Positions 6,001-9,000 of a stretch of DNA of 61,742 nucleotides are shown piece by piece. How positions within the stretch are numbered: the stretch's first letter is position 1; the number at the start of each line of letters is the position of its first letter. The position numbers were made by a program. The stretch comes from a virus (Duplodnaviria > Heunggongvirae > Uroviricota > Caudoviricetes): IMG/VR virus record IMGVR_UViG_646311924_000011. One strand, written 5' to 3'.

Positions 6001-9000
6001 AATCAGAATGGGATGGAATCGTCGTATACAGGGGTGTTCTGCTGGTTACTACTTTGCTGCTGCGGGCCATTTCCTGAAGCTGCAAATCCAATCTTTGCAT
6101 TCAGTAATTCAAGAGTGATTGATTGACCATTTTGCCCCTGATAAACATCAACCCTGATGTTTTCTCCGGTAATTTCTACAATGCCACCTTCAACAAGAAC
6201 ACTACGGTAGTAATCCGCTTGCGCTCCCGGCTTGGCAAATACAACGGCGTTGTAGTTTGTCCATTCTTTCTTTTTTGTCTGGCGATCGTAATACTGAACG
6301 CCAGCACGGATGTTGAATCCGATATTTTCCCCGGCCTGAAACTCTCTTGCGGGCTTGTTTAGTCTTACAGTAATCGAATGTGCCATTAAGCAGCCGCTCC
6401 TTCTAATTCGTCTCGTCTGATGTTGTAAACGTCCTGCGCTTTGTGCTGCTCCGGTGTGCCTTCGAGCATCTTCCACGCTTTGGCGAACGCCTGTTTAAGC
6501 TCTTCTACGGTGTTTTTCTGCAATGCTGCGTCAGTGAATGCTTTTAGAACCTGTTCAGGTGTAGGTGATGGTTTTGATTGCTTTGCTGCTGCGTTCTGCT
6601 GATGTTTATGCTCGTCTGTATCTGCATCTTTCGCATCATCAATGCCGAACAAACCATTGAGGCAATACTTGCGTGCATAAGAGCTTGTAGCTCCCGTAAC
6701 TTGTGCAGAATCCATTCCTTTCTTGCTTTCTTCCTCTCGTGCAAGAGCGGTTGCCGTATGACTGTTTTCGCCATCGGTAATAGTTGCCGTGGCTTTCACG
6801 TAATACCGATTACCAATCAACACAACTTCATCGCTGATTGATAAAAACAGACCATTCAGTAACGGCTTAACGCCTTCAAGAATGTCTTCGCAGCTTCTGT
6901 ATTTATATTTACCGAATGAGTTGTACTGATTCTTGGGCGCGTTCAGATTTTCCTGAATAGCTGCCAGTCTTGCGTAAAATTCTTTGCTCATATGATTGTT
7001 CTCAGAATGGACATGGCCCAAGGAAATAACGCTGATTTAATACTTCAGTCTTTGCCGCATTTAAAAATACGCGAACACCTTCACGATCTCCCTTCTGGCG
7101 ATACATTAACGCCTGCTGCGTGTACATGCGTCTCTGTAACTTGCTCTCCTTCACGGTGGTTGCAAGTGACATGAATATCTCCTTCGTTACCGATTAATTC
7201 TTTCATCTGACGAATGAATTCTTCGTCTGACCAGTTATCTGTAAAACTCATGGGCGGCCTTGTTGTTTCAAAATATCCCAAAGCTTTTCGAGCAAGCTTT
7301 TCATTCTTGGTTGTTTAAAGTCTGCTCCGGTTAAAATATTTTTTCGTGAATGCTGTACCGATAAAATCGGGTTGAAAGGGCGAACCGATGCCGCCCCTGC
7401 AATAGCGAACTGTTGCATAGGATGCTCCTTCTGTTTGATTGCATAACGAAAACGCCTCGAGTGAAGCGTTATTGGTATGCATATAAAAAGGCCCTCACAC
7501 TGGAGGGCAAAGAAGATTTCCAATAATCAGAACAAGTCGGCTCCTGTTTAGTTACGAGCGACATTGCTCCGTGTATTCACTCGTTGGAATGAATACACAG
7601 TGCTTATTCGTACTAATAAAACACCCAATTTTCTGTTTCTTGGTTGTGTCCAAAGTTATATTCAATATCTGGTATTGATGTATCAATATTCTTCATCCCA
7701 TCAACAAGAGTTGATACAACAGCCAAATCTTGTTTGATTCTCATTAAATGGTACTTCTTCCGGCGCAATAAACTTTCAATGGCAAGTTTCTTCGTCGGGA
7801 ATGCAAAAGATCTTTCGGCATTTTTTGCTACTTTCTTAATTGCATATCTATTTCTCCTTTGTTTCCATTCCTGTAACCACTGATTTGGTGCTGGTTTAAA
7901 ATTAACAATCCAATGCGCAGGAACCAACCATGCATAATGATCTGTCTGATGAAAAGCTATATATTGAAGTGCGAATATTTTTATCCCATCTTCTTCAACT
8001 GTCGCCTGGAATCTCCAGAAAACAGGCATTCCATCATGTTCAGTTTCTGATTCAGGAAAAGGTACGCTCCATGATTTTGTCATATCTCACCTCAAATAAG
8101 TGGTTTGCTGCCTAATTTCATTTTCTGGCGACCAACACAAGTCACCTCGCCGTCAGTTGTTTTGATTTCCGGTAGCCTGCCGCGTAAATGGCTACGTTTG
8201 GAAGACATACACCAGTTTCTGGTTGCTTATGTCCAAACTCATTCGCGTACACAATGGCCGCTCGCTCCAGATTGCGTCTGTATTCTTTCTGTTGCCAGAT
8301 CACGTCCTGTGCCATGAACTTAATTGGCTTAGCGTCTTCTATGCGCTCAGGCGTTTCGTGAGTACCTTTAGCCTGAATCTGCGCTCTGCTTAGAGTAGGG
8401 CGGTGTAATACTTCTGAACTTATTGCTTCTTCGCGGGCCAGTACGCCGTTAGCTAATGCCTTTGCCTTTAAACGCTCACGACGACGAGAACGTGAATTGC
8501 CTTTGAACTGAGTTCTGCGTGTCATATAGACCTCCTGATGAACTTTGGTGGTGTGGTAGGTGGGAGACCCATTTCGACCTGTTTCGGCCTACTTCAATTC
8601 GGCAATAGTCCCGCAGGCCTCGCCGCTTTACGTGCGACATATTCCCGTCCATGAACCCTTCACCACACCCCAAAGTTCACTTTGGTTATTGCGCTTTGTC
8701 AGCGCCGTAGATTCATATTCGAATCGTTGTATATTCACCGCCCTGGTGAGTAATGCGTCCTGCTGACGACGATAATAATGAACCAATAGTTCGACATTAT
8801 CAAGAACTATTGGTACGAATTTTGGTGATTTATTAACTCTACGAAGTATGATTCTGATATATAAGGAAATTTATTTTTGAAAATGTGGCTGATGAAGGTT
8901 ATGCGGCAGGGATCATAACTGCATGGTTTAGCGAGTTACATCAATAAATACAATTGGTTATGTTTTTTAGGTGGGCGAACGTGAGGCAAAGAAAACCCGG

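What the first reader, a model, noticed from the sequence alone, without database searches (positions are those of the whole stretch)
7571..8083. AT-rich orphan gene in the N-cIII hotspot followed by a perfect palindrome
A 156-aa hydrophilic ORF with no recognisable motif sits between N and the cIII-like gene, the slot where lambda carries ral and sieB (restriction alleviation and superinfection exclusion). It is visibly AT-rich and is followed by GTGTATTCA-N10-TGAATACAC (7571-7598). Position and composition suggest a horizontally acquired exclusion or anti-defence moron.
Basis: inference. Interest (0 to 1): 0.6.

Follow-up and report, generated by a model that had tools for sequence, protein, structure and literature searches.

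The report
Known phage gene beside PreS hairpin
The "orphan" gene is a widespread phage early gene of unknown function (HK97 gp45 / 933W L0079). The palindrome after it does not belong to the gene: it is a conserved RNA hairpin at the start of the known lambda small RNA PreS.

Summary
A 156-aa ORF (7613-8083, minus strand) lies between N and a cIII-like gene. Its GC content is 36%, against 50% for the window. The palindrome at 7571-7598 is real.

- **The ORF is not an orphan.** It is HK97 gp45 / 933W L0079 (PHROG 1636). The ORF-plus-PreS segment is present in 562 of 5,426 complete E. coli genomes. Distant relatives occur in the early regions of many phages.
- **No function is known.** Pfam, NCBIfam, PADLOC and the literature give nothing. 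A confident AlphaFold model (pLDDT 93) matches no solved structure.
- **It is not a classic moron.** It has no promoter of its own and no membrane segment, so it is a pL-driven lytic-phase gene.
- **The palindrome belongs to the conserved tL2 region.** Bases 7491-7603 are 100% identical to phage lambda; the U-tail beyond (7483-7490) differs at two bases. The hairpin ends 2 nt before the cloned 5' end of the published Hfq-dependent sRNA PreS/LPR1, whose terminator is tL2a.
- **The hairpin is a selected RNA structure.** Four unrelated stem sequences occupy the same position in other phages: 8 of 16 pairs show compensatory changes and 95% of positions stay paired.
- **The slot upstream of it is variable.** At least 21 unrelated ORF families occupy it.

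Most likely the hairpin is a processing or stability element that separates swappable cargo genes from PreS. The role of gp45 remains unknown.

The parts
7613..8083 (-). 156-aa ORF of the HK97 gp45 / 933W L0079 family (PHROG 1636). Function unknown. Soluble, pI 9.1, with a basic core (residues 56-130, net charge +12) and acidic ends.
   Evidence: Conserved as a protein down to 55% identity, with about 60 distant relatives. AlphaFold pLDDT 93. No PDB fold match.
8086..8093 (-). Shine-Dalgarno sequence GAGGTGAG of the ORF, inside the 58-nt N-ORF spacer. The spacer has no significant structure and no terminator.
   Evidence: spacer fold z = 0.16.
7566..7603 (-). Conserved RNA hairpin. The lower stem pairs GCAC(U) with (G)GAGC around an A.A mismatch. 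It lies at the mosaic junction and directly 5' of PreS.
   Evidence: 100% identical to lambda. Four sequence alleles show compensatory changes.
7483..7569 (-). Homologue of lambda sRNA PreS (LPR1), 87 nt. The seed region is about 7519-7536. The sequence is identical to lambda from the 5' end through the tL2a stem.
   Evidence: location between ral and ea10, 3' end at tL2a, cloning primers start at GAGCAATGTCGCTCG..
7491..7508 (-). tL2a intrinsic terminator stem-loop (GCCCTC-CAGTGT-GAGGGC), followed by a U-tract at 7485-7489. This is the 3' end of PreS.
   Evidence: Annotated tL2A in HK620..
7451..7470 (-). tL2b-like intrinsic terminator just upstream of the cIII-like gene.
   Evidence: Annotated tL2B in HK620.
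8142..8525 (-). Antiterminator N (933W/HK97 type), the upstream neighbour in the pL operon.
7248..7418 (-). cIII-like gene (56 aa), the downstream neighbour. The ea10/ssb gene that 933W and lambda carry between tL2a and tL2b is absent here.

Best explanation
The finding joins two independent things.

(1) The ORF. It is a member of the gp45/L0079 family, one of many interchangeable cargo genes in the variable slot between N and the tL2 region of lambdoid phages. It has no promoter of its own, and no intrinsic terminator separates it from N. It is therefore made from the pL transcript early in lytic growth or induction, not in the lysogen (inferred). The protein is soluble and basic, and no conserved set of catalytic-type residues is evident in the broad family. 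Its predicted fold (a three-stranded beta-meander, short helices, a 33-residue helix and a conserved C-terminal tail) matches no solved structure. My best guess is that it is a binding protein that acts early on a nucleic acid or a host factor, for host takeover or counter-defence. That step is inference only.

(2) The palindrome. It is the upper stem of a conserved RNA hairpin in the pL transcript. It sits exactly at the 5' edge of the PreS (LPR1) sRNA, whose 3' end is the tL2a terminator. No promoter-like site was found upstream of PreS, so the sRNA must be cut out of the pL transcript. The hairpin most likely directs or delimits that cut; the cloned 5' end lies in the 3' strand of its lower stem. 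It would then cap the 3' end of the upstream N-cargo mRNA. It would also act as the fixed docking point for swapping cargo genes by recombination.
For: Gene identity:
- PHROG 1636, E=1e-111.
- 98-99% protein identity to 933W L0079, HK97 gp45 and phi24B vb_24B_11c.

Expression from pL:
- The only promoter-like sites in 7000-9000 are at 8803-8775 (presumably pL) and at 7245-7218, downstream of the ORF.
- The only convincing terminators are tL2a and tL2b, both downstream of the ORF.
- The N-ORF spacer is unstructured.

Protein properties:
- pLDDT 93.
- BFVD gives only uncharacterized proteins from phages of Erwinia, Achromobacter, Rhizobium, Delftia, Tenacibaculum and Cellulophaga.
- Relatives sit in early-gene blocks of both temperate and virulent phages.

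Hairpin and PreS:
- Identical to lambda from GCACTG through the tL2a stem.
- PreS lies between ral and ea10, ends at tL2a, is about 88 nt, is lytic-only and depends on Hfq.
- The published primers start PreS at GAGCAATG, which is window 7569, 2 nt after the palindrome.
- 35 of 36 distinct upstream variants fold into a hairpin at that spot.
- Four unrelated stem sequences occupy it. 8 of 16 pairs have double changes. 95.1% of cells are paired, against 23-52% when the partner is slid. 0 of 500 shuffles reach the observed covariation score.
- The G.U pairs exist only in the pL-sense RNA.
- In Salmonella P22-like phages, sequence homology to the window stops exactly at the PreS 5' end (H78-H84), yet a different hairpin is present.
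Against: - No experiment or annotation gives gp45 a function. The binding-protein and counter-defence idea rests on position, timing and lack of catalytic motifs.
- Rho-dependent termination between N and the ORF cannot be excluded, so immediate-early expression is not shown.
- The PreS 5' end is taken from cloning primers and band size in a preprint, not from mapped ends, so it could be off by a few nucleotides.
- No RNase is identified. A 12-16 bp stem is short for RNase III.
- In HK022, IS903 sits inside the 5' arm of the hairpin, so the hairpin is not essential for phage viability.
- The lower-stem GGAGC can pair instead within the first stem of PreS.
Confidence: 0.55

Rival explanations
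1. The ORF is a horizontally acquired superinfection-exclusion or restriction-alleviation moron, like lambda sieB or ral, and the palindrome is a binding site for it or for a regulator.
For: Ral and annotated exclusion genes occupy the same slot in other phages. The GC content is low.
Against: - No promoter of its own, so no expected expression from the prophage, which exclusion requires.
- No membrane segment, unlike Sie-type proteins (my own knowledge).
- hhalign against Ral gives probability 0.1%.
- The gene sits in tandem with ral in E. coli SD134209.
- Relatives occur in virulent-type phages.
- DefenseFinder anti-defence runs by others reported only methyltransferases, Ral and Gam for a set of EHEC phages. 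Several phages of the same accession series carry this gene.
- The palindrome is identical downstream of ral in lambda, and its sequence is replaced while its pairing is kept. That argues against a sequence-specific DNA site.
Confidence: 0.1
2. The ORF encodes a nucleic-acid-binding accessory factor for phage DNA transactions (replication, recombination or partition-like functions), not a host-directed or anti-defence protein.
For: - The central region has net charge +12.
- The gene lies in early-left operons next to recombination genes.
- In Bas81/NX263-type siphoviruses it directly precedes a ParB-HTH protein, and in Klebsiella phage VLCpiS10a it lies two genes from a homologous one.
Against: - No ParB-like gene is in the window.
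- Neighbours differ widely among relatives.
- No known DNA- or RNA-binding fold was detected.
- The gene is dispensable, since most lambdoid phages lack it.
Confidence: 0.2
3. The hairpin acts in transcription or at the DNA level. It could be a tL1-like terminator or pause site, or a DNA cruciform or boundary sequence that serves only as a recombination joint between modules.
For: It lies exactly at the mosaic junction, where homology to lambda begins at 7603. Many unrelated cargo ORFs share the last codons GAA TAA just before it.
Against: - No U-tract follows the stem, so it is not an intrinsic terminator. It was not called by the terminator scan.
- A recombination joint needs sequence identity, not pairing. 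Here pairing is kept through complete sequence replacement and through G.U pairs that are strand-specific.
Confidence: 0.12

Closest known systems
HK97 gp45 / 933W L0079 / phi24B vb_24B_11c (PHROG 1636)
   Same: Same gene: 98-99% protein identity, same length, and the same position directly after N.
   Different: Nothing material. All are annotated as hypothetical, and I found no functional study.
Lambda sRNA PreS (LPR1) with terminator tL2a (bioRxiv 10.1101/2024.10.31.621285)
   Same: The window is identical to lambda from the hairpin through the PreS body, the seed and the tL2a stem. The position in the pL operon is the same.
   Different: - The upstream cargo is gp45 instead of ral.
- ea10 is missing downstream.
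- The U-tail differs slightly (CCTTTTTAT against CGATTTTTTAT).
- The preprint text has no occurrence of 'hairpin' or 'stem', so it does not discuss the upstream hairpin.
- PreS is not in Rfam 15.
Lambda Ral (restriction alleviation) and SieB-type exclusion genes
   Same: They occupy the same variable slot between N and tL2a.
   Different: No sequence or profile similarity to Ral. The sizes differ (156 aa against 66 aa). The ORF has no membrane helix. It co-occurs with ral.
Lambda sib retroregulation hairpin, and sRNAs processed from mRNAs (3'-UTR-derived sRNAs)
   Same: A functional analogy only. All involve a stable hairpin in a pL read-through transcript downstream of a coding region, or an sRNA released from a longer mRNA and ending at an intrinsic terminator (my own knowledge of these systems).
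   Different: No sequence relation. The nuclease and the direction of the effect on the upstream mRNA (stabilising or destabilising) are untested here.

Membership tests
HK97 gp45 / 933W L0079 family (PHROG 1636) | Full-length sequence homology | tested here: met
   hmmscan E=1e-111 over residues 1-156 of 156. tblastn 98-99% identity to HK97, 933W and phi24B.
HK97 gp45 / 933W L0079 family (PHROG 1636) | Position in the early-left operon downstream of N | tested here: met
   Also found after N-ral in another prophage.
PreS/LPR1 sRNA locus of lambda | Sequence identity including the seed | tested here: met
   Identical to lambda across 7491-7569. The 5' end motif GAGCAATGTCGCTCGTAAC is unique in the window.
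PreS/LPR1 sRNA locus of lambda | 3' end formed by the tL2a Rho-independent terminator with a U-tail | tested here: met
   Stem 7508-7491 followed by TTTTT. Described.
PreS/LPR1 sRNA locus of lambda | Hfq binding, lytic-phase expression, activation of dnaN translation | not testable with these tools
   Shown for lambda only.
Ral anti-restriction family | Sequence or profile similarity to lambda Ral | tested here: not met
   hhalign probability 0.1%.
Sie-type superinfection exclusion proteins | Membrane-spanning segment(s) | tested here: not met
   The best 19-residue Kyte-Doolittle window is 0.71 and GRAVY is -0.55.
Moron (Juhala et al. 2000 sense) | Own promoter and terminator that allow expression from the repressed prophage | tested here: not met
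   No promoter-like site lies between pL and the ORF. The downstream terminator is the shared tL2a. This is a consensus scan only, so weak promoters are not excluded.
Known defence system proteins (PADLOC-DB) | HMM match | tested here: not met
   0 families.
Intrinsic terminator (for the palindrome) | G+C-rich stem followed by a U-tract | tested here: not met
   The stem is followed by GGAGCAATG and was not called by the scan.
Structured RNA element (for the palindrome) | Base pairing maintained by compensatory substitutions | tested here: met
   8 of 16 pairs have changes on both sides. 95.1% of cells are paired, against 23-52% in slid controls.

The most novel reading that the evidence does not exclude
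Two readings are not excluded.

(a) The gp45/L0079 family has a confidently predicted fold with no solved relative and is spread across phages of several bacterial phyla. It could be a new early-acting counter-defence or host-takeover protein.

(b) The covarying hairpin could be a dedicated insulator and processing signal. It would release PreS from whatever cargo mRNA lies upstream, making the N-to-tL2a slot a plug-and-play cassette site.
Probability: 0.3. Interest if true: 0.6.

Novelty: already known. Interest (0 to 1): 0.35.

Why it matters
The gene is very common. The ORF-plus-PreS segment is in about one in ten complete E. coli genomes, and the gene is in most 933W-type Shiga-toxin phages and in HK97. 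It is probably made at the very start of lytic growth, yet nothing is known about it and its predicted fold is new. That makes it a reasonable candidate for functional screens, but not a discovery in itself.

The more useful result concerns the palindrome. It shows that the PreS sRNA locus, described so far for lambda, is present unchanged in this Stx-type phage. It also shows that PreS is preceded by a structurally conserved hairpin that the PreS preprint does not discuss. This gives a concrete, testable hypothesis for how PreS is cut out of the pL transcript, and for why unrelated genes can be exchanged upstream of it without disturbing it.

Tried and rejected
Searches on the ORF that found nothing:
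- Pfam, NCBIfam and PADLOC. Pfam scans of 50 family members gave only chance hits.
- A profile search of PDB sequences: best E=0.21.
- Literature searches for L0079, HK97 gp45, vb_24B_11c, protein accessions and PHROG 1636. Searches on lambdoid anti-defence gave nothing on this gene.

Structure:
- The first AlphaFold run, on 19 close homologues, failed (pLDDT 52). Only the 50-sequence alignment worked.
- The afdb50 library was unavailable.

Other dead ends:
- Rfam had no family in 6500-9500.
- The search for related loci could not use alignments A3 or A7.
- Two long representatives, P0063 and P0075, were repeat-driven false positives.
- A possible link to ParB-like proteins holds in two phage groups but not in lambdoid phages or most other contexts.
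- The EHEC anti-sRNAs (AsxR, AgvB) lie at PR', not here.
- No citing text was found for old mapping of RNase III sites in the pL operon.
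Full report
**What is at the coordinates**

The window is a 933W-like Shiga-toxin lambdoid phage. Bases 7400-8300 match Stx phages, 933W and TL-2011a at 97-98% identity. An ATG-initiated ORF of 156 aa lies on the minus strand at 7613-8083, preceded by a GAGGTGAG ribosome-binding site at 8086-8093.

Its upstream neighbour is the antiterminator N (8142-8525; Pfam N_peptide). Its downstream neighbour is a 56-aa cIII-like gene (7248-7418). That gene is annotated cIII in mEpX1 and several RefSeq phages and is only weakly similar to lambda cIII.

The ORF has 36.3% GC (GC3 29%) against 49.6% for the window. That puts it in the lowest 2% of equal-sized windows. The palindrome GTGTATTCA-N10-TGAATACAC is exactly at 7571-7598.

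**The ORF is not an orphan**

- It matches PHROG 1636 end to end (E=1e-111).
- It is the same gene as 933W L0079, HK97 gene 45 and phi24B vb_24B_11c.
- tblastn finds it in 88 deposited phage genomes, always as 'hypothetical protein'.
- The segment holding the ORF and the PreS region is present at 80% coverage or more in 562 of 5,426 complete E. coli genomes.
- Close homologues (55-98% identity) occur in Escherichia, Salmonella, Pectobacterium, Brenneria, Rosenbergiella and Symbiopectobacterium.
- A profile search of 1.84 billion representatives adds about 60 distant relatives of 130-155 aa. All fall in PHROGs of unknown function.
- There is no hit in Pfam, NCBIfam or PADLOC.
- I found nothing on its function in the literature.

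**Structure**

With only close homologues AlphaFold failed (pLDDT 52). With the 50-sequence alignment it gave a confident model (pLDDT 93, pTM 0.80). In order along the chain, the model has:
- a three-stranded antiparallel beta-meander (residues 19-55);
- two short helices and a short strand;
- a 33-residue helix (98-130);
- an ordered C-terminal tail that carries the conserved NFGHNxETExW motif.

The protein has no membrane helix. Its core is strongly basic (residues 56-130, net +12) and its ends are acidic. Across the broad family only G33, E46, K87 and A101 are invariant or nearly so. That does not look like a catalytic set.

**How it is expressed (inferred)**

Between 7000 and 9000 the scan finds promoter-like sites only at 8803-8775 (presumably pL) and at 7245-7218, downstream of the ORF. 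The only convincing intrinsic terminators are at 7508-7491 and 7470-7451, both downstream of the ORF. The 58-nt N-ORF spacer has no significant structure.

The ORF is therefore most simply read as part of the pL transcript with N. It would be made in lytic growth and not from the repressed prophage. This argues against the classic moron model and against superinfection exclusion.

- The protein shows no relation to Ral.
- In E. coli SD134209 the gene order is N (HK620 type) - ral - gp45 - hairpin. So gp45 neither replaces Ral nor is tied to one N allele.
- Relatives lie in early-gene blocks of both temperate and virulent-type phages, with no constant partner. A ParB-HTH neighbour recurs in two phage groups but is absent from the window.

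**The palindrome belongs to the PreS/tL2a module, not to the ORF**

The 176 bases downstream of the ORF match 368 phage records. In lambda, 434, HK620 and many others, which carry different genes upstream, the match runs up to window position about 7603, 9 nt beyond the ORF's stop codon. An alignment shows the window identical to lambda from GCACTG (7603) through the stem of the terminator at 7491. In lambda this segment lies between ral and ea10.

A 2024 preprint (bioRxiv 10.1101/2024.10.31.621285) describes the Hfq-dependent, lytic-phase sRNA LPR1/PreS at exactly this place:
- Its 3' end is tL2a.
- It is about 88 nt long, with a 68-nt processed form.
- It activates dnaN translation.
- The cloning and in vitro transcription primers start it at GAGCAATGTCGCTCG. 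That is window 7569, 2 nt after the last base of the palindrome.

So 7483-7569 is a PreS homologue with an identical seed. The site at 7491-7508 is tL2a, and 7451-7470 is the tL2b equivalent (annotated as such in HK620). PreS is not in Rfam 15. The window lacks the ea10/ssb gene that 933W and lambda carry between tL2a and tL2b.

**The hairpin is a selected RNA structure**

On the pL-sense strand the palindrome extends to a 12-bp stem with a CAAC tetraloop, plus a lower stem pairing GCAC(U) with (G)GAGC. Its free energy is -20.2 kcal/mol, z = -6.7.

I collected 120 further loci with the PreS 5' motif. With the earlier loci these gave 36 distinct upstream sequences. All but one fold into a hairpin at the same position.

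At least four unrelated stem sequences occur between the conserved flanks GCAC and GAGCA:
- the lambda type, GUGUAUUCAUUC;
- the ES18 type, AAUGCGGA;
- UAUAGCAGA;
- UAAUGACCA.

On a 14-sequence alignment the pair counts are clear:

| Measure | Value |
|---|---|
| Pairs with changes on both sides | 8 of 16 |
| Cells paired | 95.1% |
| Cells paired when the 3' partner is slid by 1-3 columns | 23-52% |
| Shuffles reaching the observed covariation score | 0 of 500 |

Several pairs are G.U, which pair only in the pL-sense RNA. This argues for an RNA-level function and against a sequence-specific protein-binding DNA site.

The single exception is HK022, where IS903 is inserted in the 5' arm. The element is therefore not essential.

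**The slot is a real hotspot**

In 99 loci with enough upstream sequence, the ORF that ends just before the hairpin falls into at least 21 unrelated families. Ral accounts for 29 loci and gp45 for 19. Many of these unrelated ORFs end with GAA TAA immediately before GCAC. The junction therefore reaches into the last codons. In the window gp45 stops 9 nt earlier and is followed by TACGAATAA.

**Most likely mechanism**

- Shown: the identity of the ORF family; the identity of the PreS/tL2a module; the position of the hairpin at the PreS 5' edge and at the mosaic junction; the structural conservation of the hairpin.
- Inferred: pL transcripts run through N, gp45 and the hairpin into PreS, and end at tL2a or read through it with N.
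- Inferred: no promoter-like site was found upstream of PreS, so the sRNA must be released by cleavage. The cloned 5' end lies in the 3' strand of the lower stem.
- Proposed: the hairpin directs or limits this cleavage. It then caps the 3' end of the upstream mRNA, or, as with lambda sib, exposes that mRNA to decay. The nuclease and the direction of the effect are untested.
- Proposed, with low confidence: gp45 is a non-enzymatic, early-acting binding protein, directed at a host factor or a nucleic acid, possibly for counter-defence.

**Verdict**

Both features are already catalogued. The gene is a known hypothetical family, and the palindrome belongs to a published sRNA locus. The modest new points are the covarying hairpin at the PreS boundary and the confident, unmatched fold of gp45.

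Noticed in passing
window 7483-7569 (-): A full homologue of the lambda sRNA PreS/LPR1 is present in this Stx-type phage. It is identical to lambda through the seed and the tL2a stem. It is not annotated in any of the matching phage records I looked at, and it is not in Rfam 15.
   Followed up: yes
window 7604-7612 and loci L008, L029, L031, L040, L059, L085, L090, L093: A short motif, CGAATAA, precedes the hairpin whatever the cargo. In many unrelated cargo ORFs its GAA TAA forms the last sense codon and the stop. In the window gp45 stops at TAG 9 nt earlier and is followed by TACGAATAA. This may be a recombination joint or part of the RNA element.
   Followed up: partly
L010 (HK022) 1654-2710: In HK022, IS903 is inserted inside the 5' arm of the hairpin. 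The 3' arm and PreS are left intact. This is a natural disruption mutant of the hairpin.
   Followed up: partly
window 7471-7490 compared with L001 (933W) 3079-3447: The window lacks the ea10/ssb gene that 933W and lambda carry between tL2a and tL2b. Its arrangement (tL2a directly followed by tL2b and a cIII-like gene of the mEpX1/HK542 type, then an Erf recombinase at 6386-6994) resembles HK97 and P22-like phages more than 933W.
   Followed up: partly
L006 3501-4798; L138 3501-4798; L137 3459-5194: In Bas81/NX263-type siphoviruses the gp45-like gene is the first gene of an operon and is directly followed by a ParB-HTH protein. In Klebsiella phage VLCpiS10a a gp45-like gene lies two genes upstream of a homologous ParB-HTH protein (28% identity), with a YspA/SLOG-family protein in between.
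   Followed up: partly
window 9181-10682: The stk kinase and the gene after it (933W L0083 homologue), between cI and pL, are as AT-rich (35% GC) as the ORF under study. This is the known 933W immunity-region insert.
   Followed up: no
L136 (E. coli SD134209) 1331-2468: This prophage has the order N (HK620 type) - ral - gp45 - hairpin - PreS. Two cargo genes can be stacked in the slot, and gp45 keeps its place next to the hairpin.
   Followed up: partly
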